Notes: a model not told the origin generated them from the letters alone. A stretch of DNA of 40,366 nucleotides from a bacterium (GCA_051008875.1 JBPCXC010000144.1:1-40366), one strand, 5' to 3'. Positions 4,879 through 40,366 are shown, numbered from the stretch's first letter. Numbers and translations are program-made.

Positions 4879-4903
4879 AGTCGTCTCCGGATCGTGCGGC
4901 GGA

Positions 4904-9150: not shown

Positions 9151-9216
9151 ATGCGTGTTGTAGATGTTGTTATGAATAATGTTGCGCGGGCGGCTGTATG
9201 CGCGCATGGAATCTAG
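9151..9216 (+). CDS. 21-codon upstream ORF in the res leader (MRVVDVVMNNVARAAVCAHGI)
   Basis: ATG preceded by GAGG with a 6-nt spacer. This is the only good Shine-Dalgarno in the leader. The TAG stop lies 13 nt before the res ATG at 9230. No recognisable family. Confidence 0.25.
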   Translation: MRVVDVVMNNVARAAVCAHGI

Positions 9217-9229
9217 CGCGCGCGCGATT

Positions 9230-12200
9230 ATGAGTACCGACCTGGACAAGTTCTTTGAGCGTCCAATTCTTAACTCGCCATACGAGTGCCCGACGCAGCA
9301 CTGGGAGTTGGACGAGGATCGGCAGCCGACCAATAAGATTCTGGAGACGCGGCGCCCGGCGGATTTCATCACGCCGATTCCAGCGCCGAGACAAGTTCGG
9401 CGCGCAAACCAAACAAACTTGCCGGCTGATGAGGATGACGGACTTCTCGCACAACAAGAGTACGCAACTACCATCATCAACGAAGTTCGTGGTGCAGTAG
9501 ATGCATGGCGTAAGTTTCCGAATCCGAACGACTGGGGCGTTACGCCAACCACCACGAAACTTTTAGAACATTGGCGCGGGCATCGTTTCAGCAACCTGCG
9601 CCCGTTCTTTTGTCAAATCGAAGCCGTTGAAATTGCTATTTGGCTGACCGAAGTTGCGCCGAAGTTTGGCGAAAACGGCGATAAATTCATCAAGTATCTC
9701 GCCAACGCCAACCAAGAATCTAACCCCGACTTGAGTCGCCTCGCGTTAAAACTCGCTACTGGCGCGGGCAAGACCACAGTGATGGCGATGTTGATTGCGT
9801 GGCAAACGCTGAACGCTGTCCGCAATCCGAACAACAAGTCGTTCACGAAAGGTTTTTTAGTGGTTACGCCCGGCATCACCATCCGCGATCGCCTACGCGT
9901 GCTGAAACCCAACGACCCAGATAGTTATTTAGTGAGTCGCGAACTCGTTCCGTCAGGCATGCTCCGCGAATTGCATGAAGCCAGAATCGTCATCACCAAC
10001 TATCACGCGTTCAAGTTGCGTGAAACAATCAAACTCGCAAAAGGGAGTCGGCAATTACTGCAAGGCCAGCGTGGCGAAGAAATCAAGACGCTGGAAACCG
10101 AAGGTCAGATGCTGAAGCGCGTTATGCCCGAACTGGAGAAAATGAAAAATATCATGGTGCTGAACGACGAAGCACATCACTGCTATCGTGAAAAACTGGC
10201 GGATAGGACGGAAAGGAAATTAGTAGAAGATGAGAAAACGGAAGCCAAGAAAAACACGGACGCCGCGCGTGTTTGGATTACTGGCTTGGAAACGGTGCAA
10301 CGCAAGTTGAAAACCAGTCGCGTATTCGATCTTTCCGCAACCCCATTTTTCCTGCGTGGCTCTGGCTACGCCGAAGGCACATTGTTCCCGTGGACGATGA
10401 GCGACTTTTCGCTGATGGATGCGATTGAAAGCGGCATCGTCAAACTGCCGCGCGTGCCAGTGTCGGACAATGTGCCCGACGAAGACATACCGAAATTCCG
10501 CAACCTGTGGACTCACATTCGCGAGCACATGCCGCGGAAAGGGCGCAGAACTGGCGGCGCTCTTGACCCGCTGAGTCTCCCGACAGAACTGCAAGGTGCG
10601 CTCGAAGCATTGTACGGGCATTACGAAAAAGTGTATCAACAATGGCAAGAAGTGGGCATCAAAGTGCCGCCTTGTTTTGTATTGGTATGCAACAACACCG
10701 CAACATCCAAGTTGTTGTATGATTACATTTCCGGATTCCATTCTACCAACGAAGATGGTTCCGTCAAATTCAACAACGGTCGACTGAAACTCTTTCGCAA
10801 TTTCGATGACGAAGGCAAACCGCTGCCGCGACCGCGCACGTTGCTAATCGACAGCGAACAACTCGAATCCGGCGAAGCACTCGATAAAAACTTTCGCGCA
10901 GCGGCGAGTGCGGAAATTGAACATTTCCGTAGCGATGTACGCAAACGCGGCGATCACAAACTCGCCGAAAATTTAAGCGACGAGGATTTGTTGCGCGAAG
11001 TAATGAACACGGTCGGCAAAGAAGATCGCCTCGGCGGTGAGACGCGTTGTGTGGTTTCTGTTTCGATGCTTACCGAAGGCTGGGACGCCAACACCGTTAC
11101 GCACATTCTTGGTGTGCGCGCGTTCGGCACGCAGTTGTTGTGCGAACAAGTCGTTGGTCGTGCGTTGCGCCGACTATCGTACAAACCAAACGACGACGGA
11201 CTTTTGAGCGTTGAATACGCCGATGTTTTCGGCATTCCCTTTGACTTCACCGCTCGCCCCGGTGGCGGCAGTCACAGCCCGCCAGAAAACACAATTCACG
11301 TACAAGCCATATCCCCAGACCGAGATGCCAGTGAGATTACATTTCCGCGCGTCGCTGGATACCGCGTGGATCTTCCCGAAGACCACATAAAGACCAAGTT
11401 CGACAAAGATTCCACTTACAAACTTACGCCAAAAACAGTTGCACCGACCAAAACGCGCAACGAAGGCATCATCGGCGAAGGCGTCAATCTCAGTCTTGAT
11501 TACCTTGAAAAAGTTCGTTTGGCGGAAGTGGCGTTCTACCTCACCCGACATCTGGTCGAAAAGAAATGGCGCAAACCGAACGAAGCCCCGCGCGCGCATC
11601 TGTTTGGTCAGTTGCTACGCATAACGCAGTATTGGCTCGAACATCATCTTATTTGCCAAGGCGGAACCAAGCCAGCGCAACTACTTTATCTACAACTCGC
11701 CGATGCCGCTTGCGAGCGTATCACCCGCGGCATCGTTACGCACTTCGAAAACGAACGCCCGGTCAAAGCGACACTCGATGCATATAATCCAATCGGTTCA
11801 ACGCGGTATGTCAATTTCCGTACATCAAAATCACATTACCGAACCGACCCGCGCCGTTGCCACATAAACTATGTGGTGTGCGACAGCAGTTGGGAGTCAG
11901 AGTTTTGTCGCATCGTTGAATCGCATCCGCGGGTGCGCGCGTATGTGAAAAACCAAAACTTAGGACTGGAAGTTCCATACCGTTACCGCTCCATATCGCG
12001 CAAATATTTTCCGGATTTTATCGTGCGCCTTGACGACGGCAATGGCGAAGATGATTTGCTGAACTTGATCGTCGAAATCAAAGGTTATCGCGGTGAAGAT
12101 GCCGAAGAGAAAAAATCCACAATGGATGCGTACTGGGTGCCCGGTGTGAACAATCTTAAAGAACACGGTCGCTGGGCTTTCGCCGAGTTCACAGAAGTTT

Positions 12201-12292
12201 TTGAAATGGAGGATGACTTTGAAGCGAAAATCACCGAGCAAATCGAACAAGCGATTGCCGCTGAAACCAACACCCATGAACAAGAGAACTGA
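9230..12292 (+). CDS. res: type III restriction enzyme Res subunit (SF2 helicase + C-terminal PD-(D/E)xK nuclease)
   Basis: Walker A KLATGAGKTTVMA, DEAH box VLNDEAHHCY, motif VI MLTEGWDANTVTHILGVRAF..VGRALRR, and a C-terminal nuclease-like segment YFPDFIVRL...LIVEIKGY. I chose the start at MSTDLDKFFERPILNSPYE; the ORF is open from 9179. Confidence 0.85.
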   Translation: MSTDLDKFFERPILNSPYECPTQHWELDEDRQPTNKILETRRPADFITPIPAPRQVRRANQTNLPADEDDGLLAQQEYATTIINEVRGAVDAWRKFPNPNDWGVTPTTTKLLEHWRGHRFSNLRPFFCQIEAVEIAIWLTEVAPKFGENGDKFIKYLANANQESNPDLSRLALKLATGAGKTTVMAMLIAWQTLNAVRNPNNKSFTKGFLVVTPGITIRDRLRVLKPNDPDSYLVSRELVPSGMLRELHEARIVITNYHAFKLRETIKLAKGSRQLLQGQRGEEIKTLETEGQMLKRVMPELEKMKNIMVLNDEAHHCYREKLADRTERKLVEDEKTEAKKNTDAARVWITGLETVQRKLKTSRVFDLSATPFFLRGSGYAEGTLFPWTMSDFSLMDAIESGIVKLPRVPVSDNVPDEDIPKFRNLWTHIREHMPRKGRRTGGALDPLSLPTELQGALEALYGHYEKVYQQWQEVGIKVPPCFVLVCNNTATSKLLYDYISGFHSTNEDGSVKFNNGRLKLFRNFDDEGKPLPRPRTLLIDSEQLESGEALDKNFRAAASAEIEHFRSDVRKRGDHKLAENLSDEDLLREVMNTVGKEDRLGGETRCVVSVSMLTEGWDANTVTHILGVRAFGTQLLCEQVVGRALRRLSYKPNDDGLLSVEYADVFGIPFDFTARPGGGSHSPPENTIHVQAISPDRDASEITFPRVAGYRVDLPEDHIKTKFDKDSTYKLTPKTVAPTKTRNEGIIGEGVNLSLDYLEKVRLAEVAFYLTRHLVEKKWRKPNEAPRAHLFGQLLRITQYWLEHHLICQGGTKPAQLLYLQLADAACERITRGIVTHFENERPVKATLDAYNPIGSTRYVNFRTSKSHYRTDPRRCHINYVVCDSSWESEFCRIVESHPRVRAYVKNQNLGLEVPYRYRSISRKYFPDFIVRLDDGNGEDDLLNLIVEIKGYRGEDAEEKKSTMDAYWVPGVNNLKEHGRWAFAEFTEVFEMEDDFEAKITEQIEQAIAAETNTHEQEN

Positions 12293-12294
12293 AC

Positions 12295-15021
12295 ATGCCG
12301 ACCCGCAAAAAGAGTAAGTCCAAGGCGAAGAAAGTAACCGCGCTGACGCACGATAAAGCATCGCGCAAGAACATTCCAACTGCGGAGCATCAGGCGCTTG
12401 TGGATGAGCGCGATCAGCATCCGATTCGCGTCGCCTACGAACGGCGCAACCGCGATCTTGACCCGCAACTGGTGTGGCGCGAGAAGGATCAGCAGGATGC
12501 GTCCGATTTGGTGGTGCAAGCGCCGCCGCTGTTCATCCAAGAGAAAGTGCATCCGAAAGTGCTGATTGACGACTTGGTGCGCGAGAGCGCACGCACCGAA
12601 CCGTCGGATCAAGTTGACTTGTTTTCAGATTTCAACGGCTTGCCGGACGGAGATGCGCGAACCGAGTTCTACCAGCACGATGCGAACTGGTCGAACCGGA
12701 TGATTCTCGGCGATAGTCTGCAAGTTATGGCGTCGCTGGCGGAGCGCGAGGGATTGCGCGGCAAAGTTCAGTGTATCTATATCGATCCGCCGTATGGCAT
12801 CAAATTCAACTCAAATTTTCAGTGGTCGACGACGAGTCGCGATGTCAAGGATGGAAAAGGCGAGCACATCACGCGCGAGCCGGAGCAAGTAAAGGCGTTC
12901 CGGGATACTTGGCGTGATGGGGTTCATAGTTATCTCGCTTATATGCGAGATCGGTTGATTGTTGGGCGCGACTTACTTGCCGAATCCGGATCCATATTTG
13001 TGCAGATTGGTGATGAGAATGTACACCGCATTCGCACGTTGATGGACGAAGTGTTTGGGGATGAAAATTTTGTTTCTCAGATACATTTTGCGACAACCAG
13101 TGGATTTTCTACCGCGAAGCTTAGTCGCATAGGCGATTATTTGCTTTGGTATGCCCGCGATAAAGAGGCTGTTAAATACAGAACACTTTTTGTCTCGAAA
13201 GGAAATATCGGAAGTGGTCTCGAATCGTATAAATACTTGCGTCTGCAAAATGGTGTACAGCGATCGATGACGAAAGAGGAGCGCGATGAGAAGGTTCCGC
13301 TTCCCGATGGATGCAAAGCGTTTCGTTATAGCGATATGCAAAGTAAAGGAGCTGCCTCGCAGGATGCTCCAGTTGAATTTCGGAATCAAATTTATCGGCC
13401 GCTCAAAAGCAGCCACTGGAAGGCAAATTGGCCCAAGGGGATCGAGCGACTTAAATTTTCTGGGCGCATCGACGCAGCCGGTAGTCGACTCGCTTACATT
13501 CGCTTTGCTGGTGATTACCCCGTTCAACAAATTGTTAATTCTTGGATGGACACCGGCTTTGGTTATTCAGCGACAGATAAACAATATGTTGTGCAAACCC
13601 ACGAACGTGTCGTCCGACGATGTGTTCTTATGTCTACCGATCCCGGTGACCTTGTCCTCGATCCAACCGGCGGCTCCGGCACTGCCGCATACGTCGCTGA
13701 GCAGTGGGGTCGTCGTTGGATCACGATTGATACTTCGCGTGTTGCGCTCGCACTCGCTCGCGCGCGAATTATGGGCGCGCGCTACCCGTACTACAAACTC
13801 GCAGGCGATACGGTGCAAGAGGGCTTTGACTACGAACGCGTCCCGCACATCACGCTCAAATTCATCGCCAACAACGCCGAGATTGATGTCATCTACGAAG
13901 AACATCAACAGCGACTCGAACCGTTGCGCGCGAAGTTGAACAATGCGCTTAAGGAAAAGTGGGAGGAGTGGGAAATTCCACGCGATGCCGATAATGCTTG
14001 GTCAAGCGAGGCGCGCAAAACACACGCCGCGTGGTGGGAAGGGCGCATCGCGCGACAAAAAGAAATTGATGCGAACATCGCGAAGAAGGCCGATTTAGAG
14101 ACACTTTACGACAAACCGCATGAAGACAAAACGAAGGTGCGCGTTGCGGGTCCGTTCACCGTGGATAGTCTTTCGCCACACCGTATGCTCGTTACAGATG
14201 AAACAAACAACAAAGCAGCCGAAGACAATGCCGAGTACAACAAGACGCGTAACTTCACTGCCATAATTTTGGAAAACTTAAAAACGGCTGGCGTGCAACA
14301 AGCGAATAAGGAAGACAAAATCGAATTCACTTCATTGGAGCCGTGGTGCGGGGATATGGTGTGCGCAGAGGGTCGTTATGTAAAAACTAGTAAGGGCGAC
14401 GCGGAAATACGCGCCGCTATTTTTATCGGTCCCGAGTTCGGCACCGTCTCACGCACCGACTTAGTAGCCGCCGCCAAAGAAGCCGCCGAAGCGGGATTTG
14501 ATGTATTGATTGCTTGCGCGTTCAACTACGAGGCGCACGCCACCGAAATCGAAAAATTGGGGCGTATGCAAGTGTTGAAAGCGCGCATGAACGCCGACTT
14601 GCACATGGCGGGCGACTTGAAAGCCACCGACAAAGGCAACTTGTTCGTAATCTTCGGTGAACCCGACATCGAAATCCAACCCGCCGATGACGGTCAGTTC
14701 AAAGTCAAACTAAACGGCGTGGACGTGTATCACCCGAACAGCGGAGAAATCCGCAGCGACGACACCGACGGCATCGCTTGCTGGTTCATCGACACCAACT
14801 ACAACGAAGAAAGCTTCTTCGTCCGCCACGCCTATTTCCTCGGCGCCGGCGATCCATACAAATCTCTAAAAACCACCCTAAAAGCCGAAATCAACAAAGA
14901 AGCATGGGAAACCTTGAAAAGCGACACCTCGCGCCCATTTCCCAAACCTGAAACGGGCCGAATCGCCGTAAAAGTAATCAACCACCTCGGCGACGAGGTG
15001 ATGAAGGTGTTTCGGGTTTGA
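12295..15021 (+). CDS. mod: type III Mod-like N6-adenine/N4-cytosine DNA methyltransferase (beta class) with a roughly 400-aa C-terminal extension
   Basis: 908 aa. IYIDPPYGIKFNSNF (motif IV) precedes DPTGGSGTAAYVAEQWGRRWITID (motif I), which is the beta-class order. The ATG lies 2 nt after the res TGA. Confidence 0.85.
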   Translation: MPTRKKSKSKAKKVTALTHDKASRKNIPTAEHQALVDERDQHPIRVAYERRNRDLDPQLVWREKDQQDASDLVVQAPPLFIQEKVHPKVLIDDLVRESARTEPSDQVDLFSDFNGLPDGDARTEFYQHDANWSNRMILGDSLQVMASLAEREGLRGKVQCIYIDPPYGIKFNSNFQWSTTSRDVKDGKGEHITREPEQVKAFRDTWRDGVHSYLAYMRDRLIVGRDLLAESGSIFVQIGDENVHRIRTLMDEVFGDENFVSQIHFATTSGFSTAKLSRIGDYLLWYARDKEAVKYRTLFVSKGNIGSGLESYKYLRLQNGVQRSMTKEERDEKVPLPDGCKAFRYSDMQSKGAASQDAPVEFRNQIYRPLKSSHWKANWPKGIERLKFSGRIDAAGSRLAYIRFAGDYPVQQIVNSWMDTGFGYSATDKQYVVQTHERVVRRCVLMSTDPGDLVLDPTGGSGTAAYVAEQWGRRWITIDTSRVALALARARIMGARYPYYKLAGDTVQEGFDYERVPHITLKFIANNAEIDVIYEEHQQRLEPLRAKLNNALKEKWEEWEIPRDADNAWSSEARKTHAAWWEGRIARQKEIDANIAKKADLETLYDKPHEDKTKVRVAGPFTVDSLSPHRMLVTDETNNKAAEDNAEYNKTRNFTAIILENLKTAGVQQANKEDKIEFTSLEPWCGDMVCAEGRYVKTSKGDAEIRAAIFIGPEFGTVSRTDLVAAAKEAAEAGFDVLIACAFNYEAHATEIEKLGRMQVLKARMNADLHMAGDLKATDKGNLFVIFGEPDIEIQPADDGQFKVKLNGVDVYHPNSGEIRSDDTDGIACWFIDTNYNEESFFVRHAYFLGAGDPYKSLKTTLKAEINKEAWETLKSDTSRPFPKPETGRIAVKVINHLGDEVMKVFRV

Positions 15022-21796: not shown

Positions 21797-21835
21797 GGAC
21801 TACGCATCCGCGCACGCACCGCCCTCGCCGCCATT

Positions 21836-22228
21836 GCGCGCATCATCCCGATACGCGCCCTGCGGACTTAGCTAACGCTCGCAAAAAAACGCTCCGAGCG
21901 TTTTTCCCGCAACAATCTCCCTCCGCCGTCTTTGCGCGTATCATCTTGATGCGCGCCCTTCGGGCTTTGCTTGCGCTCGCGAAAAACGCTCCGTGCGTTT
22001 TTTTGCGCGTATCGTCCCTGATACTCGCCCTTCGGGCTCGCTTGCGCTCGCGAAAAAACGCTCCCGGCGTTTTTTTCCCGCAACAATCTTCCCCCTTCCG
22101 TCTTTGCGCGTATCATCCTGATACTTGCCCTTCGGGCTCGCTACCGCTCGCGAAAAAACGCTCCCGGCGTTTTTTTCCCGTAAAAACCTCCCCCCGCCGT
22201 CATTCCCGCAGTCTTTAAGCGGGAATCC
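21836..22228 (+). repeat. four head-to-tail copies (about 98, 71, 101 and 123 nt) of a mosaic REP-like unit
   Basis: Units start at 21836, 21934, 22005 and 22106 with GCGCG(T/C)ATC-N5/6-GATAC. They continue with GCCCTTCGGGC, CGCTCGCGAAAAAACGCTCCCGGCGTTTTTTTCCCG and an optional CAACAATCT..CCGTCTTT tail. Confidence 0.8.
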
Positions 22229-22449: not shown

Positions 22450-23646
22450 TCAAGTCGTCAGCGCGCGTTGCAGCGCGGCGCGGGCGTGGTGGGATTGCAG
22501 CGCGAGTTCGATCAGGCGGTCGATCAACGCGTCGTACCGCACGCCGCTGGCCGCCCACAGCCGCGGATACATGCTGATCGGGGTGAAGCCGGGCAGGGTG
22601 TTGATTTCGTTCAAGGTGACCGCGAAGGTCTCGCGGTGGACGAAGAAGTCGACGCGCGCGAGGCCGGCGCCGTCGATCTCGGCGAAGGCGCGCAGCGCGA
22701 GTTCGCGCACGCGCTCGGCGACCGCGGCGGGCAGGTCGGCGGGCACGATCAACTCGGATTTGTCGTCGATGTACTTGGTGGCGTAGTCGTAGAACTCGGC
22801 GCCGGGAATGATCTCGCCGACCACCGACGCGCGCACGCCGTCGTTCGCATCGCCTTGCGCGTCGCTTCGCGCGCCGTCGTTCGCGTCGCTTTGCGACAGC
22901 GCGTTGCCGAGCACCGCGCATTCGATTTCGCGGCAGTTCTCCATCGCCTGCTCGATCACGATCTTGTTGTCGAAGCGCAGCGCGTGGTTGATCGCATCGG
23001 CGAGTTCGTCTTCGCCGCCGACCTTGCCGACGCCGACGCTGGAGCCGGAGTTGGCCGGCTTGACGAACAACGGATAGGCGATTTCGCGCGCGGCGCGGGC
23101 GATCACTGCTTGCGGCTGCGCGCGCCATTGCGCGGCGGTGACTTCGATGTGCGCGGCTTGCGGGATGCCGGCGGCGGCGAAGATTTTCTTGGCGAGGATC
23201 TTGTCCATCGCCACCGCCGAGGCGGCGACGCCGCAGCCGACATACGGGATGCCGGCCATCTCGAACACGCCTTGGATCGCGCCGTCCTCGCCGAAGGTGC
23301 CGTGCAGCGCCGGGAAGACGACGTCGATCTTCGGCAGCGTCGCGCGCGTCGTTTTCGGTGGCGTTGCCGTCGTCGCCGGTGCGAGGTTGCCGTGCGCGTG
23401 CAGGTCGAGGGTGATGCACTCGGTTGCGGTGTTGGCGTCGTCGCCGATGGACTTCACGCCGCCGTCGGCGATCAAGCGGTCGAAACTCTCGGCGAGATGC
23501 CAGTGGCCGAGTTTGTCGATGCCGATCAGACTGACGTTGTATTTTTCGCGATCGATCGCGTTGAGGATCGAGCGCGCCGAGGTCACCGAGACTTCGTGCT
23601 CGCACGATCGCCCGCCGAACAGCAAGGCGAGGTTGGTTTTTTTCAT
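22450..23646 (-). CDS. ddl: D-alanine--D-alanine ligase
   Basis: 398 aa. LLFGGRSCEHEVSVTSA, ALHGTFGEDGAIQG, PLFVKPANSGSSVG and LARVDFF...LNEINTLPGFT are classic Ddl motifs. The ATG lies 6 nt after the nuoN stop. Confidence 0.9.
   Translation of the reverse strand: MKKTNLALLFGGRSCEHEVSVTSARSILNAIDREKYNVSLIGIDKLGHWHLAESFDRLIADGGVKSIGDDANTATECITLDLHAHGNLAPATTATPPKTTRATLPKIDVVFPALHGTFGEDGAIQGVFEMAGIPYVGCGVAASAVAMDKILAKKIFAAAGIPQAAHIEVTAAQWRAQPQAVIARAAREIAYPLFVKPANSGSSVGVGKVGGEDELADAINHALRFDNKIVIEQAMENCREIECAVLGNALSQSDANDGARSDAQGDANDGVRASVVGEIIPGAEFYDYATKYIDDKSELIVPADLPAAVAERVRELALRAFAEIDGAGLARVDFFVHRETFAVTLNEINTLPGFTPISMYPRLWAASGVRYDALIDRLIELALQSHHARAALQRALTT

Positions 23647-33715: not shown

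Positions 33716-33726
<11 letters not shown>
31273..33726 (-). CDS. nuoG: NADH-quinone oxidoreductase subunit G
   Basis: 817 aa. Motifs [46 protein letters not shown] and [10 protein letters not shown]. Contains an acidic low-complexity insertion near the C-terminus. Confidence 0.9.
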
Positions 33727-35037
<1,311 letters not shown>

Positions 35038-35041
<4 letters not shown>

Positions 35042-35544
35042 GCGCGCTCTCCTTCTTGCGACGGTGACGACGACGGCGACAGGCTGGCGATGATCTCATC
35101 GACTCGCTGCGGCGTCAGGTCTTCGTGATAGTCGCGGCCGATCTGCATCATCGGCGCGTTGGCGCAGGCGGCGAGGCATTCGACTTCCTTCAGCGTGAAC
35201 CGACCGTCCGGCGTGGTCTCGCCGAAGTCGATGCCGAGTTTGCGCTTCAGGTGCGCGACGATCTCGTCGCAGCCGCGCAGCATGCACGAGATGTTGGTGC
35301 ACACGTTGATCTTGTGCGCGCCGACCGGCGCCAAGTCGTACATCGAATAGAACGTGGCGACTTCGTACGCGCGCACCGACGGCACGCCGATCACCTCGGC
35401 GACGCGCTCGATCAACGCGCCGCCGAGCCAGCCGTGCTCGTCCTGCGCGATGCGCAACGCCGCCAGCAACGCCGACTGCCGTCGCTGCGTCGGATACTTC
35501 GCGCATTCGCGCTCGATCTCGGCGAGGGATTCGTTAGACAACAT
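35038..35544 (-). CDS. nuoE: NADH-quinone oxidoreductase subunit E
   Basis: 168 aa from [18 protein letters not shown] (ATG at 35542-35544). 2Fe-2S motifs [11 protein letters not shown] and [16 protein letters not shown]. The ORF extension to 35613 runs into a repeat copy. Confidence 0.85.
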
Positions 35545-35600
35545 GATGGTTAAGAAAACGCAACGAGCGAGCGAGGTGGTGCATGGCGAAAAGAAAAAGA

Positions 35601-35722
35601 GATTCCCGCTCAACAGACTGCGGGAATGACGGCGGGGAGGTGGTCGCGGGAAAAAATCGCCGGGAGCGATTTTTCGCGAGCGTCAGCGAGCCCGAAGGGC
35701 GCGTATCAGGGACGATACGCGC
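35601..35722 (-). repeat. complete copy of the mosaic REP-like unit inside the nuoD-nuoE spacer
   Basis: The reverse complement reads GCGCGTATCGTCCCTGATACGCGCCCTTCGGGCTCGCTGACGCTCGCGAAAAATCGCTCCCGGCGATTTTTTCCCGCGACCACCTCCCCGCCGTCATTCCCGCAGTCTGTTGAGCGGGAATC. It is collinear with unit 4 at 22106-22228. Degenerate fragments follow at about 35723-35740 and 35840-35870. Confidence 0.8.
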
Positions 35723-35922
35723 AATGACGGCGGGCGGCGATGCGGAGGTGACCGCGGGTGGTGACGGCGGCGCAACGCGCATCGCGACCATCCAAATCCC
35801 TAGCGCAGGATTTTTTTCGTCAGGCAAGGCGCGCAACGAGGGAGCGAGGGCGCGTATAAATATACGCAACCGAGCGCGCGAGGCGGCGCAACGCCGCATG
35901 GCGGAAAAAAGACCAGCGGACA

Positions 35923-37176
35923 TCAGCGATCAATCTCTCCGAACACGATGTCTTGCGAGCCGATGATGGCGACCATGTCGGCGAGCATGTGGCCGCGGGT
36001 CATTTCGTCGAGCGCGGCCAAGTGGGCGAAGCCGGGCGCGCGGATTTTGCAGCGATAGGGTTTGTTGGCGCCGTCGGAAATGAGGTAGATGCCGAACTCG
36101 CCCTTGGGATGCTCGATCGCGGCGTATGCTTCGCCGGCGGGGATGCAGTAGCCTTCGGTGAACAACTTGAAGTGGTGGATCAGCGCTTCCATGTCGCCCT
36201 TCATCTGTTCGCGCGGCGGCGGCGCGAGTTTGCCGTGGTCGGCCATGATCTCGCCGGGGTTGGCGCGCAGCCAGTCGATGCATTGGCGGACGATGCGGTT
36301 GGACTGGCGCATCTCCTCGACGCGCACCAGGTAGCGGTCGTAGCTATCGCCGTTGACGCCGACCGGGATGTCGAAGTCCATTTCGCGATAGGCCGCGTAC
36401 GGCTGCTTCTTGCGCAAGTCCCATTCGACCCCGGAGCCGCGCAGCATCGGTCCGGAGAAGCCGAGCGCCATCGCGCGCTCCGGCTCGACCACGCCGATGC
36501 CGACGGTGCGCTGCTTCCAGATGCGGTTGTCCGACAGCAGCGTTTCGTATTCGTCCACGCAGCCGGGGAATCGCTCGGTGAAGGCTTCGATGAAGTCGAG
36601 CAGCGAGCCTTCGCGGTCGCGGTTTCGCTCGCGCGTTTCGGCTTGCGAGAAGCGCGCGTTGACCGCGTGTTGCGGCATCGCGTCGGGCAGATCGCGATAG
36701 ACTCCGCCGGGGCGATAGTAGGTGGCGTGCATGCGCGCGCCGCTGACCGCCTCGTAGCAGTCCATCAAGTCCTCGCGCTCGCGGAAGCAGTACAGGAACA
36801 CCGTCATCGCGCCGATGTCGAGCGCGTGCGCGCCGAGCCACAGGCAGTGATTCAAGATGCGCGTGATCTCGTCGAACATCACGCGGATGTACTGCGCGCG
36901 CAACGGCGGCGCGACGCCGATCATCTTCTCGATGGCGAGCACATAGGCGTGCTCGTTGCACATCATCGATACATAGTCGAGCCGATCCATATAGCCGATG
37001 CTCTGGTTGTACGGCTTCGACTCCGCCAGTTTCTCGGTGGCGCGATGCAGCAGCCCGATGTGCGGATCGCAACGCTCGATGACCTCGCCGTCCATCTCCA
37101 TGATCACGCGCAGCACGCCATGCGCGGCCGGATGCTGCGGACCGAAGTTCATCGTGTAGTTGCGGATTTCAGCCAT
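35923..37176 (-). CDS. nuoD: NADH-quinone oxidoreductase subunit D
   Basis: 417 aa. Motifs [29 protein letters not shown] and a C-terminal DIVFGEIDR. Confidence 0.9.
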
Positions 37177-37181
37177 CGTGC

Positions 37182-37874
37182 TCAGCCATCGCGCGCGTCG
37201 TCTTCGCCGCCATTCGTCGTCGGGCGATTGGCGGCGCCGAACGCATCCTCGCCGATCGTGCGCGGCACCAGTGTGCGCGGCTCGATCGTGACCGGTTGAT
37301 AGATGACTCGTCCTTGTGCCTCGTCGTAGCGCATTTCGACTTCGCCGGACAGCGGGAAGTCCTTGCGGAACGGGTGGCCGATGAAGCCGTAGTCGGTCAG
37401 CAGCCGGCGCAGGTCGGGATGGCCGTCGAACAGGATGCCGAACAAGTCGAACGCCTCGCGCTCATACCAGTTCGCCGCCGGCCACACCTCGGTCACCGAG
37501 GCGAACGACGGCGCGTCGTCGTCGCTCGACACGCGCAGCCGCAGCCGCACGTTGCGCTGCAGCGACAACAGATGATAGACCACCGCGAAACGCGTGCCAT
37601 CCTGCACCGGCTTCGCCGCCACCACCGACTCCGCCGACGGTCCGCCGATGCCGGTCTCGATCGCCTCCGACTCGCCCCACGCACCATAGTCCACGCCGCA
37701 CAGATCGATCAACGACGCGAAGCGCAGATCGGGATCGTCGCGCAATGCAACGCAGACTTCGACGATCCGCGAAGGCTCGATCTCGCACGCGACCTCGCCG
37801 AGCGCGATCGTGCGCGAAATCAACGCATCGCCGAGCAAGCCGGGCAAGCGGTCGTTGAGTTGGGATGGACTCAT
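37182..37874 (-). CDS. nuoC: NADH-quinone oxidoreductase subunit C
   Basis: 230 aa. [29 protein letters not shown] and [10 protein letters not shown] are classic 30-kDa subunit motifs. Confidence 0.9.
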
Positions 37875-37900
37875 GCGTCGATTGAATCGCGCCGGTTGAA

Positions 37901-38458
37901 TCAGGATTCGCGGCCGAGCGTGATTCGGCGCAACACATCATGCCGGTCCAGCCAGCGGTGCTTGGCGACCGCGGCGACATGGACGAGCGCCAAAGTCAGC
38001 ATGCCGTATGCCGCCCATTTATGCACCAAGGCGAGCGTGTCCTCCAAGTTGACGCCGAACATCGTTTCGCGCGGCGCGAACACCGTCGGCATCGACACGC
38101 CGAACCAGTTGACGCCGTGACCGCCGAAATCGGTCTCCGCCCAGCCGACGGCGATGATGAACGCCGGCAGCAAATACAAACCGAGATGACCGAGGGCGGC
38201 GCCGACTTGCTCCGCGCGCGGGATTTCCGGCGGCAACGACGGCGCGGAATGACGCAGCCGAAACGCGATGCGAAACACCAGCAACAACAGCAAAGTTACG
38301 CCGACCGAAATGTGCAGACTAAACAACAACTCCTCCAGCGGCGAGTCGTCCTCGACCCAAGTCGTCATCGTATAACCGCAACTCCACATGAACGCGAAGC
38401 CGAGCGCCATCAGCCAGTGCAGAGCGCGCAGCGAAATGTGATAGCGACCGGCGTCCAT
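37901..38458 (-). CDS. cytochrome b561-family di-haem membrane protein (CybB-like)
   Basis: 185 aa, four predicted transmembrane helices. Conserved His positions lie in [26 protein letters not shown] and [10 protein letters not shown], the pattern of prokaryotic cytochrome b561 (Ni_hydr_CYTB family). Confidence 0.75.
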
Positions 38459-38469
38459 TTCGATCGCGG

Positions 38470-38553
38470 CTACGCGGCGCGCGCGATGATTTGCGCGAGC
38501 AACGCATCGCCGAGCCAGTCGGGCAAGCGGTCGTTAATCTCGGTTGCGTTCAT
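38470..38553 (-). pseudogene. 27-codon fossil duplicate of the nuoC 5' end (MNATEINDRLPDWLGDALLAQIIARAA*)
   Basis: An ungapped alignment anchored on the two ATGs (38553 vs 37874) gives 56/73 identical nt by hand count, with a 33/35 core (CAACGCATCGCCGAGC.AG.CGGGCAAGCGGTCGTT). The reading frame is the same and ends in TAG 11 nt before the cytochrome b561 ATG. Confidence 0.7.
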
Positions 38554-38558
38554 GGCGG

Positions 38559-38993
38559 TCACGGGTGTTCGGCGTATTGTTCCATTTCGGTTTTGCAGTC
38601 GGCGCCATACGCGTCGAGTTCGATTACGTTTCGGTCGGGGTCGCGGATAAAGACCGCCGACATGCCGCCGAAACTGAATGCGCCGGTCAGCGCGATGCCT
38701 TTGGATTCGAGCGTTGCCTTGGCGTCGTCGAGGTCGGCGACGGTCATGGCGAAGTGCGTGATGCCGGTGTGTTTTTCGTTCGCGTCCATTAAGATGTTGG
38801 TGTCGAAATTTCCGTTCGCAGGTCCGAGCAAGTTCAAAACCACGCCGCTTGGATGACGCATAACAATCGGATGTCCTTGTTCAAACCCGTCGCTGTGTTC
38901 GTAGGCGAACCCGAGCGACCGGTAAAAATCGATGGAGCGAGTTTTTTCCCGTATGCGGATGCCGATGTGATTTACCGACCGAATGTTCAGCAT
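38559..38993 (-). CDS. VOC-superfamily (glyoxalase/bleomycin-resistance/dioxygenase fold) protein
   Basis: 144 aa. VNHIGIRIREKTRSIDFYRSLGF, ITHFAMTVADLDDA and FIRDPDRNVIELD are typical paired beta-alpha-beta-beta-beta VOC motifs. The ATG overlaps the nuoB TAA by 1 nt. GC is lower than in the flanking nuo genes by eye. Confidence 0.75.
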   Translation of the reverse strand: MLNIRSVNHIGIRIREKTRSIDFYRSLGFAYEHSDGFEQGHPIVMRHPSGVVLNLLGPANGNFDTNILMDANEKHTGITHFAMTVADLDDAKATLESKGIALTGAFSFGGMSAVFIRDPDRNVIELDAYGADCKTEMEQYAEHP

Positions 38994-39481
38994 TATGAAT
39001 TCGCCGCCCGCGCGATCGTGTTGGTCTTCTTGATCTTCTGCTGCAACTGCAGGATTCCGTAGATCAGCGCTTCGGCGGTCGGCGGGCAGCCGGGGACGTA
39101 CACATCCACCGGCACGATGCGGTCACAGCCGCGCACCACCGAGTAGGAGTAGTGGTAGTAGCCGCCGCCGTTGGCGCACGAGCCCATCGAGATGACCCAG
39201 CGCGGCTCGGCCATCTGGTCGTACACGCGGCGCAGCGCCGGCGCCATCTTGTTGGTCAAGGTGCCGGCGACGATCATCACGTCGGACTGGCGCGGGCTCG
39301 GGCGGAACATCACGCCGAAGCGGTCGAGGTCGTAGCGCGACGCGCCGGCCTGCATCATCTCGACCGCGCAGCAGGCGAGGCCGAACGACATCGGCCACAT
39401 CGAGCCGGTGCGCGCCCAGTTGATCAGTTCGTCCAGCCGCGCGGTGGCGAAGCCTTCGCGCAAGGTGCCTTCAAGCGCCAT
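38993..39481 (-). CDS. nuoB: NADH-quinone oxidoreductase subunit B
   Basis: 162 aa. Motifs [55 protein letters not shown]. Confidence 0.9.
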
Positions 39482-39485
39482 CGAA

Positions 39486-39842
39486 TCACTCCCACTCGAG
39501 CGCGCCCTTCTTCCATTCGTAGATGAACCCCACCACCAGCACGGCGAGGAAGATCATCATCGCCCAGAAGCCGAACGCGCCGATTTCATCCAGCGCGATC
39601 GCCCACGGGAACAGGAACGCGATCTCGAGATCGAAAATAATGAACAGGATCGCCACCAAGTAGTAGCGAACGTCGAACTTCATGCGCGAATCCTCGAACG
39701 CCTCGAAGCCGCATTCATACGGCGACAACTTGTCGTCATACGGATTGCTCGGCGCCAACGCCTTGCCGGCGGCGATCGCCACCGCGCCGATGCCGAGGCC
39801 GACCGCGATGAACAGCAGGATCGGGAAATAGTCGGTCAGCAT
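39486..39842 (-). CDS. nuoA: NADH-quinone oxidoreductase subunit A
   Basis: 118 aa from [15 protein letters not shown] (ATG at 39840-39842). Motifs [12 protein letters not shown] and [12 protein letters not shown]. The upstream ORF extension is unlikely to be coding. Confidence 0.9.
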
Positions 39843-39971
39843 GGTCGGCGGTGGTTGGGGATGCGGATTCGGTTTGCGTCGGCTCAAAGCGACTCGCTTA
39901 GCAAGCGGGTGTCGCACGGACGACGACAAACGCCCAGCGCGGACGACGGCTTCGATTCGCGACGTCGGTGG

Positions 39972-40000
39972 ATTCTATTGGCCGCCGCCGCTTGCGTCAA
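39972..40000 (-). promoter_or_regulatory. sigma70-like promoter candidate for the nuo operon
   Basis: The minus strand reads TTGACG (40000-39995), a 17-nt spacer, then TAGAAT (39977-39972), about 130 nt upstream of the nuoA ATG. Confidence 0.5.
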
Positions 40001-40097: not shown

Positions 40098-40211
40098 CAT
40101 TCCCGCAAAAACCATCCCCCGCCGTCATTCCCGCAGTTTGTTGAGCGGGAATCCATCGCTCGCGGCAGCGAGTGAGGCAGGGCGAAGCCCTGCTGGCTTT
40201 TGATGCGAGCG
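40098..40211 (+). repeat. partial copy of the mosaic repeat (CATTCCCGC hairpin module plus the GAGTGAGGCAG..GCTTTTGATGCG module)
   Basis: 40120-40154 CGCCGTCATTCCCGCAGTTTGTTGAGCGGGAATCC and the following ..GCGAGTGAGGCAGGGCGAAGCCCTGCTGGCTTTTGATGCGAGCG are collinear with 22195-22280. Confidence 0.75.
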
Positions 40212-40314
40212 AAAATCTCTTTTCGCCTTTCAGCATACCCCGCGCTCACCCTTCGCCATCACCAAAAGAAAGCAAGCCGTTGGCTTGCATCACTTGCTTG
40301 CGCAAGTGTGGATT

Positions 40315-40366
40315 GTTCGTATCGTCCCTGATACTCACCCTACGGGCTCGCTTCGCTCGCGAAAAA
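40315..40366 (+). repeat. 5' part of another REP-like unit, cut by the window end
   Basis: GTTCGTATCGTCCCTGATACTCACCCTACGGGCTCGCTTCGCTCGCGAAAAA matches the start of units 3 and 4 at 22005 and 22106. Confidence 0.7.

What the first reader, a model, noticed from the sequence alone, without database searches (positions are those of the whole stretch)
37875..38995. Complex I operon carries two non-nuo cargo genes (VOC-fold protein and cytochrome b561) between nuoB and nuoC
Seen in sequence: the minus-strand order is nuoA, nuoB, VOC (144 aa), a 27-codon nuoC-like stub, cytochrome b561 (185 aa), nuoC, nuoD and onward. The junctions leave no room for separate promoters or terminators. The VOC ATG overlaps the nuoB TAA by one base (TAATG, 38991-38995). 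The stub ATG is 5 nt after the VOC TGA. The cytochrome ATG is 11 nt after the stub TAG. The nuoC ATG is 26 nt after the cytochrome TGA. The VOC gene is visibly less GC-rich than its nuo neighbours. Established knowledge: nuoB and nuoC are normally adjacent. Extra URFs inside nqo/nuo clusters are known in Paracoccus and Rhodobacter, but I do not recognise this gene pair or this position. E. coli CybB, of the same cytochrome b561 family, has been reported to act as a membrane superoxide:quinone oxidoreductase, and complex I is a major source of reactive oxygen species. Inference: this may be a detoxification or electron-overflow module hard-wired into complex I expression, and possibly an accessory subunit pair.
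Basis: partly seen in the sequence, partly recalled or inferred. Interest (0 to 1): 0.75.

Follow-up and report, generated by a model that had tools for sequence, protein, structure and literature searches.

The report
Swappable guest genes inside complex I operon
Two unrelated genes do sit between nuoB and nuoC in this sponge-symbiont genome, but they look like passengers in a gene slot that differs from strain to strain, not new parts of complex I.

Summary
The minus-strand order is nuoA, nuoB, VOC (144 aa), a 27-codon nuoC-like stub, cytochrome b561 (185 aa), nuoC, nuoD, with spacers of -1, 5, 11 and 26 nt.

The contig belongs to Ca. Poriferihabitaceae, a family of sponge-symbiotic Gammaproteobacteria. 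In 154 loci outside this clade, nuoB and nuoC are adjacent. Inside it, 9 of 10 readable junctions carry co-oriented cargo, and the cargo differs every time: DNA methyltransferases, GmrSD, NYN, HTH and membrane proteins, or VOC. Four co-existing strains of one species carry four different sets.

- **VOC:** shared with one other species and under strong purifying selection (Ka/Ks 0.04).
- **Cytochrome b561:** found only in this organism. [quoted passage not shown] It has the E. coli CybB fold and quinone site but lacks all five cationic superoxide-collecting residues.

The most likely reading is promoter-less passengers expressed by nuo read-through, not an accessory subunit pair. The lineage-wide cargo slot inside an essential operon is the more interesting result.

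The parts
39972..40000 (-). Candidate sigma-70-type promoter of the nuo operon (TTGACG, 17 nt, TAGAAT), about 130 nt upstream of the nuoA ATG
   Evidence: Consensus scan, 10 of 12 matches. This is a prediction only.
39486..39842 (-). nuoA (118 aa from the ATG; the ORF extends to a TTG at 39929)
   Evidence: PF00507, E 4.4e-41. 86-92% identical to nuoA of the clade relatives.
38993..39481 (-). nuoB (162 aa)
   Evidence: PF01058, E 1.2e-28. 92-96% identical to the clade relatives.
38559..38993 (-). VOC-fold cargo gene (144 aa). It is the older guest, shared with one other species in the same position directly upstream of nuoC.
   Evidence: PF00903 and PF13669. 88-89% identical orthologues lie between nuoB and nuoC in L001, L168, L173 and L174. 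Ka/Ks is 0.039. GC3 is 0.70 against 0.85-0.94 for the nuo genes. Invariant residues include H9, H41, H47, H80, E125 and H143. The fold is a generic VOC fold.
38470..38553 (-). nuoC 5' stub (27 codons plus stop). It is the original start of nuoC, cut off by the cytochrome insertion, and it forms the upstream copy of a long target duplication.
   Evidence: It keeps the same GTGACCGCCATGAAC junction with VOC that precedes intact nuoC in L001, L173 and L174. It forms a direct repeat with the nuoC 5' end. A 2-nt indel followed by a TAG ends the frame.
38475..38554 (.). Direct repeat, upstream copy (D17)
   Evidence: 80 nt, 76% identical to 37796-37875, spacing 679 nt.
37901..38458 (-). Cytochrome b561 cargo gene (185 aa). 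It is a four-helix di-haem protein of the CybB fold, the younger guest, and is known only from this organism.
   Evidence: PF01292, E 2e-22. Haem-ligand His residues H14, H49, H146 and H160 are invariant among 25 homologues. AF2 pLDDT is 90.3, and the best PDB match is 5OC0 with TM 0.82/0.87. The closest homologue is 66% identical. It is absent from the 13 other clade loci.
37796..37875 (.). Direct repeat, downstream copy (the 5' end of functional nuoC)
   Evidence: D17.
37182..37874 (-). nuoC (230 aa), intact. Its immediate upstream 26 nt differ from the ancestral VOC-nuoC junction.
   Evidence: PF00329, E 1.5e-45. 67-78% identical to the clade relatives.
35923..37176 (-). nuoD (417 aa)
   Evidence: PF00346, E 1.2e-118.
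35548..35922 (-). Unusually long nuoD-nuoE spacer. It carries a REP/MITE-like element at 35601-35725, a second non-nuo insertion in this operon.
   Evidence: Copies of the same element lie at 21820-22195 and 40117-40353. The RNA fold has z = -3.4 and includes a hairpin followed by a U-run.
35038..35547 (-). nuoE
   Evidence: 70-81% identical to nuoE of the relatives by tblastn.
33716..35041 (-). nuoF. nuoG to nuoN follow without further insertions down to 23653.

Best explanation
The window comes from a sponge-symbiotic gammaproteobacterium of the family Ca. Poriferihabitaceae. In this clade the spaces between nuoB, nuoC, nuoD, nuoE and nuoF, and above all the nuoB|nuoC junction, act as a permissive and fast-turning-over landing site. 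Promoter-less foreign genes sit there in the nuo orientation.

**The two guests arrived in separate events**
- VOC came first. It has foreign, lower-GC composition, is fixed directly upstream of nuoC in two species, and is kept by strong purifying selection.
- The cytochrome b561 came later, and only in this lineage. The incoming DNA joined inside the first ~30 codons of nuoC, and an intact nuoC 5' end was regenerated downstream. This left the old 5' end as a frameshifted 27-codon stub.
- That pattern is the signature of 'insertion with long target duplication'. It is equally the expected outcome of homology-facilitated illegitimate recombination or of Campbell-type integration of a circle carrying a nuoC 5' fragment.

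**How the genes are probably expressed and used**
- Both genes are most likely transcribed by read-through from the nuo promoter. Translation probably depends on coupling or re-initiation, because the spacers are -1 to 26 nt with no evident Shine-Dalgarno sequence (read by eye), promoter or terminator.
- They probably act as free-standing proteins. VOC would be a metal-dependent enzyme of unknown substrate.
- The cytochrome would be a quinone-pool-linked di-haem protein. Its acidic periplasmic face suggests a cationic or protein partner rather than superoxide.

**Shown:** anatomy, family membership, the duplication, the comparative distribution and selection on VOC.

**Inferred:** co-transcription, the recombination route and the biochemical roles.
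For: **1. Lineage-specific slot.**
- Of 157 loci from the genome and metagenome scans that hold both nuoB and nuoC, the median gap is 8 nt.
- Only L001 and L007, the closest relatives, exceed 300 nt.

**2. Variable cargo inside the clade.**

| Locus | Between nuoB and nuoC |
|---|---|
| L173 | VOC only |
| L001 | HARE-HTH + lipoprotein + VOC |
| L168 | 196-aa unknown + VOC |
| L174 | GmrSD remnant + nuoC stub + VOC |
| L169 | GmrSD, 604 aa |
| L172 | methyltransferase + nuoB 3' stub + two small ORFs |
| L175 | methyltransferase + nuoC stub + NYN |
| L007 | 97-aa membrane protein |
| L008 | nothing |

- Every cargo gene called between nuo genes in those tables is co-oriented with nuo.
- More cargo sits at nuoC|nuoD, nuoD|nuoE and nuoE|nuoF.

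**3. Strain-level turnover.** L001, L168, L173 and L174 come from one sample. Their NuoD and VOC are 99-100% identical, yet they carry four different cargo sets.

**4. Recurrent long duplications of the flanking nuo gene ends.**
- Window: 61-80 nt at 76-82%.
- L174: 98-121 nt at 90-94%.
- L175: 49 nt at 82%.
- L172: 69 nt of the nuoB 3' end at 91%, plus a 125-nt repeat at 96%.
- No integrase or transposase was called in any of these slots.
- This mode of insertion is documented for restriction-modification genes (PMC2853133).

**5. The stub is the ancestral start of nuoC.** It has the same junction with VOC as in L001, L173 and L174.

**6. VOC is functional.** Ka/Ks is 0.039, as low as nuoB at 0.040.

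**7. The cytochrome is intact.** It keeps all 38 positions that are invariant across the 25-sequence alignment.

**8. The junctions are real and unstructured.** They show no structure or promoter signal, and a second assembly reproduces them.
Against: - Co-transcription and translation have not been measured. Promoters could lie inside upstream coding sequence, and the promoter scan covers sigma-70-type sites only.
- VOC has held one fixed position next to nuoC in two species under strong constraint. That is compatible with some functional tie to complex I expression.
- A quinone-reactive cytochrome next to a quinone reductase is a suggestive pairing.
- Only about 10 kb around nuo was seen in the relatives. 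I cannot tell whether nuo is special or whether every operon in these genomes is invaded in the same way.
- At 76-82% identity the window repeat is too diverged to say whether it arose in place or came in with donor DNA.
- The Logan contig may derive from the same reads as the MAG. It is an independent assembly, not independent data.
Confidence: 0.7

Rival explanations
1. VOC and cytochrome b561 form a purpose-built detoxification or electron-overflow module, or an accessory subunit pair, selected to be made in step with complex I. The cytochrome would return electrons from complex-I-derived superoxide to the quinone pool, as CybB does.
For: - The packing is tight and terminator-free.
- The cytochrome has the CybB fold, with TM 0.82/0.87 to 5OC0.
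- It keeps the cytoplasmic quinone-site residues as R63, R67, H91, H160 and H167.
- VOC is conserved next to nuoC in two species with Ka/Ks 0.04.
Against: - The pair occurs only in this organism, and the cytochrome is missing from all 13 other clade loci.
- The same slot holds unrelated defence and miscellaneous genes in sister lineages and strains.
- More distant VOC homologues (69%) and the closest cytochrome homologues (66%) lie outside nuo operons.
- None of the five cationic residues that collect superoxide in CybB is kept, and the periplasmic loops carry net charges of -5 and -4.
- Superoxide from complex I forms at the flavin on the cytoplasmic side (established knowledge). The CybB superoxide site faces the periplasm (PMC11869295).
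- VOC lacks the second Glu ligand of glyoxalase I, having an invariant N54 by my manual comparison with E. coli GloA, and reaches no equivalog cut-off.
Confidence: 0.12
2. The arrangement is an assembly chimera. Two strains or two loci were joined at the repeated nuoC 5' sequence.
For: - The contig is a metagenome-assembled sequence.
- Several strains with different cargo co-exist in related samples.
- The Logan contig diverges from the window in its last 80 nt, inside nuoD.
Against: - A second assembler gives an identical sequence across the VOC-stub, stub-cytochrome, cytochrome-nuoC and nuoC-nuoD junctions.
- The two repeat copies are only 76-82% identical and differ by an indel, so they share no long exact k-mer at which a chimera could form.
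- The stub-to-cytochrome join does not lie in repeated sequence.
- Stub-bearing architectures recur in independent assemblies from other samples (L172, L174, L175).
Confidence: 0.03
3. The inserts are decaying junk. They are non-functional remnants of past insertions that are tolerated only because they do not block nuo transcription.
For: - The stub itself is a dead fragment.
- L174 carries a visibly degraded GmrSD.
- Turnover in the slot is fast.
Against: - VOC has Ka/Ks 0.039 across a synonymous divergence of about 1.5.
- Both ORFs are full-length and keep every position that is invariant in their family alignments, including the metal and haem ligands.
- The cytochrome model is confident, at pLDDT 90.
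Confidence: 0.05

Closest known systems
Insertion with long target duplication, described for restriction-modification genes (Nobusato et al. 2000; Furuta, Abe and Kobayashi 2010, PMC2853133)
   Same: - The insert is flanked by direct repeats longer than 30 bp that derive from the target sequence.
- No transposase or integrase is present.
- An 'empty' site exists in close relatives.
- In sister loci (L172, L174, L175) the cargo really is restriction-modification or type IV restriction genes.
   Different: - The target here lies inside an essential, highly conserved respiratory operon. The event regenerated an intact 5' end for an essential gene and left a translatable stub.
- The window's cargo is a cytochrome, not a restriction-modification gene.
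- The repeats have diverged to 76-82% identity.
Defence or cargo hotspots flanked by core genes, and the sequential-displacement arrays of Vibrio cholerae type VI secretion auxiliary clusters (PMC5361080)
   Same: - One site between conserved genes holds different cargo in different strains.
- The cargo is enriched in defence genes.
- By my recollection of PMC5361080 (only its listing and abstract start were seen), stubs of the flanking gene are left behind by successive insertions that use flanking homology.
   Different: Known hotspots lie between transcription units or at the end of a cluster. Here the slots are intercistronic positions inside one operon. The cargo is uniformly co-oriented and appears to have no promoter or terminator of its own.
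Unidentified reading frames (URFs) in the nqo/nuo clusters of Paracoccus denitrificans and Rhodobacter capsulatus (my own knowledge; not retrieved from the paper library)
   Same: Non-subunit ORFs are embedded in a complex I operon and co-oriented with it.
   Different: As I recall, those URFs sit at other junctions (after nqo2, nqo1, nqo3 and nqo9) and are stable features of the species. They are not VOC or cytochrome b561 genes. No strain-level turnover or flanking-gene stubs have been described for them.
E. coli CybB, the membrane superoxide oxidase (PDB 5OC0; PMC11869295)
   Same: - Both belong to Pfam family PF01292.
- Both have four helices and four haem-ligand histidines.
- The predicted fold matches, with TM 0.82/0.87 and rmsd 2.7 A.
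- The cytoplasmic quinone-site residues are conserved.
   Different: - Identity is only 24%.
- The score is 48.9 bits against the equivalog cut-off of 170.
- All five periplasmic cationic residues are replaced, and the loops are acidic across the whole 25-member subfamily.
VOC-fold proteins carried as integron cassettes (PDB 3EY7, 3EY8, 3GHJ)
   Same: They are small single-domain VOC proteins that travel as promoter-less mobile cargo. They rank among the structural matches.
   Different: Identity is only 18-21%. No attC site or integrase was seen here (attC was not searched for specifically). This VOC belongs to a large, highly conserved family with about 2500 hits and 73% mean column identity.

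Membership tests
Prokaryotic cytochrome b561 (Pfam PF01292, Ni_hydr_CYTB) | Profile match above the curated cut-off | tested here: met
   80.3 bits against a cut-off of 30.1, E 2e-22, covering residues 5-180.
Prokaryotic cytochrome b561 (Pfam PF01292, Ni_hydr_CYTB) | Four transmembrane helices carrying two pairs of haem-ligand histidines | tested here: met
   The AF2 model has helices at 8-33, 40-69, 81-111 and 138-169. H14, H49, H146 and H160 are invariant in 25 homologues and align with the CybB ligands, one of them with a one-residue shift. Haem binding itself was not measured.
CybB-type superoxide:quinone oxidoreductase (SOO) | Equivalog-level sequence match (NCBIfam NF008566 / PRK11513) | tested here: not met
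   48.9 bits against a cut-off of 170. Identity to 5OC0 is 24%.
CybB-type superoxide:quinone oxidoreductase (SOO) | Periplasmic cationic cluster that collects superoxide (R30, R35, R38, R108, K134; PMC11869295) | tested here: not met
   The aligned positions are a gap, E36, S39, H114 and A143. Loop 1 has net charge -5 and loop 3 has -4. Across 25 subfamily members the loops are acidic, and of the four aligned positions only one member has a Lys (at the R35 position).
CybB-type superoxide:quinone oxidoreductase (SOO) | Cytoplasmic quinone site (H87, H151, H158 with R59, R63) | tested here: met
   The equivalents H91, H160, H167, R63 and R67 are invariant in the subfamily.
CybB-type superoxide:quinone oxidoreductase (SOO) | Superoxide-dependent haem reduction and quinone reduction activity | not testable with these tools
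   This needs purified protein and a xanthine oxidase/hypoxanthine assay.
VOC superfamily (Pfam PF00903 / PF13669) | Profile match above the cut-off and a paired beta-alpha-beta-beta-beta fold | tested here: met
   39.6 bits against a cut-off of 20.6. The AF2 model has two beta-alpha-beta-beta-beta modules at pLDDT 77.6. Foldseek gives 205 PDB matches at E <= 0.001, and every one of the top 50 is a VOC-fold protein.
Glyoxalase I (lactoylglutathione lyase) | Equivalog score and the His/Glu/His/Glu metal ligands | tested here: not met
   TIGR00068 gives 33.5 bits against a cut-off of 120, and NF050074 gives 22.6 against 165. H9, H80 and E125 are present, but the position of the second Glu is an invariant Asn (N54), by my manual comparison with E. 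coli GloA.
Methylmalonyl-CoA epimerase | Equivalog score | tested here: not met
   TIGR03081 gives 32.4 bits against a cut-off of 114.95. The best PDB sequence match, 6XBR, has E 0.0037.
Complex I subunit or accessory subunit | Conserved co-occurrence with the nuo genes across related genomes | tested here: not met
   The cytochrome is present in 0 of 13 other clade loci. VOC is present in 5 of 10 readable nuoB|nuoC junctions, representing two species. Neither is found in the 154 loci outside the clade.
Complex I subunit or accessory subunit | Physical association with the complex | not testable with these tools
   This needs BN-PAGE or complexome profiling, or a structure.
Insertion with long target duplication | The insert is bracketed by direct repeats longer than 30 bp that derive from the target | tested here: met
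   38475-38554 against 37796-37875: 80 nt at 76% identity, with a core of 61 nt at 82% that lies far above shuffles.
Insertion with long target duplication | An uninterrupted ('empty') target exists in a close relative | tested here: met
   L001, L168, L173 and L174 have VOC directly followed by intact nuoC, with the same GTGACCGCCATGAAC junction.
Insertion with long target duplication | No transposase, integrase or other mobile-element gene in the insert | tested here: met
   The only ORF in the insert is the cytochrome. None was called in the slots of the relatives.
Integron cassette array | An IntI integrase with attI, and attC sites bounding each cassette | not tested
   No integrase domain appeared in any locus table, but attC sites were not searched for. 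The repeats found are copies of nuo gene ends, not attC-like palindromes.

The most novel reading that the evidence does not exclude
In Ca. Poriferihabitaceae the complex I operon doubles as an integrase-free cassette rack. Promoter-less genes, mostly defence genes, are captured at intercistronic junctions by recombination that uses the conserved ends of the nuo genes as attachment sequences. The 5' end of nuoC is used most often.

Each capture leaves a flanking-gene stub and pushes older cargo away from nuoC. Recombination between a stub and the intact gene end could release a circle of cargo plus a nuoC 5' fragment. Such a circle could re-integrate in another strain.

The operon's strong constitutive transcription would supply expression. 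Under this reading an essential operon would serve as a population-level exchange platform for accessory genes.
Probability: 0.3. Interest if true: 0.8.

Novelty: new variant of a known kind. Interest (0 to 1): 0.6.

Why it matters
For complex I biology the result is mostly negative. This is not a new subunit pair or a dedicated ROS module, and that saves a misdirected biochemical effort.

For genome evolution it is a clean natural example of something unexpected. An essential, deeply conserved operon tolerates repeated gene insertion at its intercistronic junctions and appears to transmit that cargo. The content varies at strain level and is enriched in restriction-modification and related defence genes.

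- **Mechanism.** The flanking-gene stubs are molecular scars that let the order and mechanism of insertions be read directly. They extend 'insertion with long target duplication' from restriction-modification genes to other cargo and to targets inside an operon.
- **Symbiont biology.** The pattern offers a testable explanation for how uncultivated sponge symbionts, known for large defence repertoires, express newly acquired promoter-less genes.
- **A cytochrome subfamily.** About 140 database members share the CybB fold and quinone site but have an acidic periplasmic face, which implies a partner other than superoxide.

Tried and rejected
- **JGI metagenome scan with NuoC.** It returned only distant relatives, at most 59% identity. 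It added controls but no clade members.
- **NCBIfam scan.** Neither cargo protein reached any equivalog cut-off, so no specific function can be assigned.
- **Foldseek on the VOC model.** It returned only generic VOC folds (FosA, glyoxalases, integron cassette proteins) at 17-23% identity, with no functional discrimination.
- **PDB sequence search for VOC.** The best match was a marginal one to methylmalonyl-CoA epimerase, at E 0.004.
- **PADLOC and Pfam on the small unknown cargo ORFs of the relatives.** No hits, apart from a HARE-HTH match just below its cut-off.
- **Rfam on the whole window.** No hits.
- **Origin of the stub.** I asked whether the stub matches a relative's nuoC better than the window's own, which would indicate a donor allele. 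The result is inconclusive: 75% to its own nuoC over 92 nt against 79% over 63 nt to L174 and L168. The L174 stub, by contrast, is clearly an in-genome duplicate at 90%.
- **Possible in-frame NuoC-cytochrome fusion.** Codons 32-36 of nuoC resemble the cytochrome's first five codons in 13 of 18 nt (my reading of the alignment). The frames differ and the evidence is at chance level, so I kept this only as a remark.
- **Literature searches.** Searches for cytochrome b561 or cargo genes inside nuo operons, and for sponge-symbiont nuo insertions, found nothing on point.
- **Paracoccus and Rhodobacter URFs.** The URF literature could not be retrieved from the library, so that comparison rests on my own knowledge.
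Full report
**1.

On the minus strand the ORFs run as follows:

| Gene | Coordinates | Length |
|---|---|---|
| nuoA | 39486-39842 | 118 aa |
| nuoB | 38993-39481 | 162 aa |
| VOC ORF | 38559-38993 | 144 aa |
| nuoC-like stub | 38470-38553 | 27 codons |
| cytochrome ORF | 37901-38458 | 185 aa |
| nuoC | 37182-37874 | 230 aa |
| nuoD | 35923-37176 | 417 aa |

- Pfam places the 144-aa protein in Glyoxalase/VOC (PF00903, 39.6 bits against a cut-off of 20.6). It places the 185-aa protein in prokaryotic cytochrome b561 (PF01292, 80.3 bits against 30.1). The flanking genes match the expected complex I families.
- VOC is compositionally distinct, with GC3 0.70 against 0.85-0.94 for the nuo genes. The cytochrome is close to the host at 0.81.
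- Between nuoB and nuoC there is no promoter-like site and no convincing terminator. RNA folds of the junction regions are no more stable than shuffled sequence, with z-scores of -0.03, -1.0 and +0.35.
- A candidate promoter (TTGACG, 17 nt, TAGAAT) lies about 130 nt upstream of nuoA.
- A Logan contig from run SRR33949963 is identical to the window from the middle of VOC to the start of nuoD. A second assembler therefore reproduces those junctions.

**2. What the stub is**

The 27-codon ORF resembles the start of nuoC. It forms an 80-nt direct repeat at 76% identity with the 5' end of the functional gene. The 61-nt core is 82% identical and scores 67, against 15.5 +/- 2.4 for shuffles.

In the closest VOC-bearing relatives, VOC is followed directly by intact nuoC. 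The junction there reads GTGACCGCCATGAAC, the same sequence that joins VOC to the stub in the window.

The stub is therefore the original start of nuoC. The cytochrome gene entered within the first ~30 codons of nuoC, and a second, intact 5' end now precedes the rest of the gene. A 2-nt indel and a TAG close the stub's frame.

This is the signature described as 'insertion with long target duplication'. That class has repeats longer than 30 bp derived from the target, no mobile-element genes, and an empty site in relatives (PMC2853133). Homology-facilitated illegitimate recombination would give the same product. So would Campbell-type integration of a circle carrying a nuoC 5' fragment. I cannot tell these routes apart.

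**3. Whose genome this is, and how unusual the arrangement is**

The best NuoC matches in species-representative genomes are Ca. Poriferihabitaceae MAGs. This family belongs to the Arenicellales (Gammaproteobacteria) and consists of sponge symbionts.

Across 157 loci from the genome and metagenome scans that hold both nuoB and nuoC, the median gap is 8 nt. Only the two loci nearest to the window exceed 300 nt. The largest gap outside the clade is 195 nt. Adjacency of nuoB and nuoC is thus the rule, and the exception is specific to this lineage.

**4. The slot is hypervariable inside the clade**

I followed NuoC homologues of 64-71% identity to their contigs and added the earlier loci.

| Locus | Content between nuoB and nuoC |
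|---|---|
| window | VOC, nuoC stub, cytochrome b561 |
| L173 | VOC |
| L001 | HARE-HTH protein, lipoprotein, VOC |
| L168 | 196-aa unknown, VOC |
| L174 | degraded GmrSD, 45-codon nuoC stub, VOC |
| L169 | GmrSD type IV restriction enzyme, 604 aa |
| L172 | N6/N4 methyltransferase, nuoB 3' stub, two small ORFs |
| L175 | methyltransferase, nuoC stub, NYN nuclease |
| L007 | 97-aa membrane protein |
| L008 | nothing |

- In L170, three tandem methyltransferase genes directly precede nuoC (nuoB is not in the locus).
- Every cargo gene called between nuo genes in those locus tables is on the nuo strand.
- More cargo sits at other junctions:
  - nuoC|nuoD in L174 and L175;
  - nuoD|nuoE in L172 and L175, a 1.7-kb insert of unclear coding in L007, and a REP-type element in the window;
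  - nuoE|nuoF in L167, L168 and L174.
- nuoA and nuoB are always adjacent.
- PADLOC confirms the defence character of the GmrSD and methyltransferase genes.
- L001, L168, L173 and L174 come from one metagenome. Their NuoD and VOC are 99-100% identical, so they are co-existing strains of one species, yet they carry four different cargo sets.
- Long duplications of flanking nuo gene ends recur:
  - 98-121 nt at 90-94% in L174;
  - 49 nt at 82% in L175;
  - 69 nt of the nuoB 3' end at 91%, plus a 125-nt repeat at 96%, in L172.
- The same cargo families recur in different lineages. The methyltransferases are 58-72% identical and the GmrSD genes 66%. This fits either old residence with differential loss or exchange through the conserved flanks.

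**5. The two guests in the window**

*VOC*
- It belongs to a large and very conserved family, with about 2500 database hits and 73% mean column identity. H9, H41, H47, H80, E125 and H143 are invariant.
- More distant members at 69% identity lie outside nuo operons, next to bolA and secA.
- Between the window and the other VOC-bearing species, VOC has Ka 0.057, Ks 1.46 and Ka/Ks 0.039. That is as constrained as nuoB at 0.040. It is therefore a working gene that has sat next to nuoC since about the split of the two species.
- Its chemistry cannot be assigned. No equivalog cut-off is reached. The position of the second glyoxalase I Glu ligand is an invariant Asn by my manual comparison with E. 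coli GloA. The predicted structure matches only generic VOC folds.

*Cytochrome b561*
- Its nearest database relative is 66% identical, and the named top hits are mostly marine Alphaproteobacteria. That nearest relative lies outside any nuo operon. None of the 13 other clade loci has the gene.
- It is intact and retains every position that is invariant across the 25-sequence alignment, including the four haem-ligand histidines.
- The AF2 model (pLDDT 90.3) superposes on E. coli CybB (5OC0) with TM 0.82/0.87.
- The cytoplasmic quinone-site residues of CybB (R59, R63, H87, H151, H158) are conserved as R63, R67, H91, H160 and H167.
- The five periplasmic cationic residues shown to collect superoxide in CybB (R30, R35, R38, R108, K134; PMC11869295) correspond to a gap, E36, S39, H114 and A143.
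- The two periplasmic loops carry net charges of -5 and -4, and they are acidic throughout the subfamily.
- The protein most likely still exchanges electrons with the quinone pool. It is unlikely to harvest superoxide the way CybB does.

**6. Most likely explanation**

The two genes are passengers in a permissive, fast-evolving cargo slot of the nuo operon. They were acquired in two steps, VOC first and the cytochrome later.

[quoted passage not shown] Both genes are probably expressed by read-through from the nuo promoter.

Nothing in the comparative data supports a dedicated complex I module or an accessory subunit pair.

- **Shown:** anatomy, family membership, the duplication, the phyletic pattern, selection on VOC and agreement between two assemblies.
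- **Inferred:** co-transcription, translational coupling, the recombination route and the biochemical roles.

**7. Rival explanations**

- *A functional complex I module.* This keeps some weight (about 0.12), because VOC holds a fixed, constrained position beside nuoC and the cytochrome is quinone-reactive.
- *An assembly chimera.* This is unlikely (about 0.03). The repeat copies are too diverged to mislead an assembler, and a second assembly agrees.
- *Decaying junk.* This is unlikely for the two ORFs (about 0.05), although it is true of the stub.

**8. Novelty**

Extra ORFs in complex I operons are known from Paracoccus and Rhodobacter (my own knowledge). Long-target-duplication insertion and core-gene-flanked defence hotspots are also known (PMC2853133; PMC5361080).

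The new element is the combination. Several intercistronic junctions of one essential operon serve as strain-variable cargo sites. The cargo is co-oriented and lacks its own promoters. Scars of successive insertions remain readable.

I found no report of this in the searchable literature. The finding as originally framed is of modest interest. The lineage-wide pattern it led to is worth following up.

Noticed in passing
window 35548-35922 (element at 35601-35725); also 21820-22195 and 40117-40353: A composite REP/MITE-like repeat family sits in the 377-nt nuoD-nuoE spacer. Several tandem copies lie downstream of the ddl gene that follows nuoN, and another lies upstream of nuoA. It includes an ATTCCCGC...GCGGGAAT hairpin and a hairpin followed by a U-run. 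In the nuo sense it folds far better than shuffled sequence (z = -3.4) and looks terminator-like, so it could attenuate transcription between nuoD and nuoE.
   Followed up: partly
L001, L168, L173, L174 (all from ENA sample ERZ28747376): Four contigs from one metagenome have 99-100% identical NuoD and VOC but four different cargo sets in the nuo operon. This indicates strain-level turnover within a single symbiont population.
   Followed up: yes
L172:1936-2004 / 3913-3981, 3723-3847 / 4850-4974, 3657-3692 / 3848-3883: The nuoB|nuoC slot holds nested direct repeats: a nuoB 3' copy (69 nt, 91%), a 125-nt repeat (96%), and a 36-nt repeat that appears to contain the nuoC start. This suggests several successive duplicative insertions in one slot.
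   Followed up: partly
L170:1-3504; L172:2029-3684; L175:2688-4301; L169:1627-3441; L174:3476-4405: The same cargo families recur at the same slot in different lineages. These are N6/N4 DNA methyltransferases (58-72% identical, three in tandem in L170) and GmrSD (66%). They are more diverged than NuoD (88-94%).
   Followed up: partly
L008, L009, L170, L171 downstream of nuoD: In three lineages no nuoE is found within 2.2-2.7 kb after nuoD. A glutamine-synthetase-like gene and Rieske-type genes follow instead. Either the insert is very large or the operon is split at nuoD|nuoE.
   Followed up: no
window 37182-37874 and NuoC of all clade loci: NuoC evolves much faster than its neighbours in this clade. 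It is 67-83% identical between lineages against 88-94% for NuoD, with Ka/Ks 0.17-0.22 against 0.04-0.09 for nuoA, nuoB and nuoD; nuoE and nuoF are intermediate at 0.14-0.22. It also has a variable insertion around residues 65-95. Repeated rebuilding of its 5' end may contribute.
   Followed up: partly
window 6416-8076 and 9179-15021: The contig holds further restriction-modification genes outside the nuo operon. One group is a D12 adenine methyltransferase with an adjacent 244-aa unknown ORF. The other is a ResIII helicase-type gene followed by a 908-aa N6/N4 methyltransferase. This fits a defence-rich symbiont genome.
   Followed up: no
window 22450-23646: A D-Ala-D-Ala ligase gene begins 7 nt after the nuoN stop on the same strand. 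It may be one more co-transcribed passenger at the 3' end of the operon, or simply the ordinary neighbouring gene.
   Followed up: no
cytochrome b561 subfamily (alignment A3; P0002-P0119): A well-populated subfamily (144 hits, 53-67% identical, the named ones mostly marine Alphaproteobacteria) has the CybB fold and quinone site. It also has invariant extra histidines (H91, H114, H167, H173) and acidic periplasmic loops, which implies a periplasmic partner other than superoxide.
   Followed up: partly
window 38441-38470 against 37766-37795: Weak homology between the stub copy and nuoC seems to run on to the cytochrome's first five codons (ATG GAC GCC GGT CGC against nuoC ATC GAC CCC GCG CGC in L001). 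The cytochrome's start codon may therefore have been recruited from nuoC-derived sequence. The support is 13 of 18 nt, which does not exclude chance.
   Followed up: partly
L174:2100-2744: The nuoB ORF of this strain is called at 214 aa because it reads through into the inserted low-GC DNA. This shows that cargo insertion can alter the C-terminus of a core subunit.
   Followed up: no
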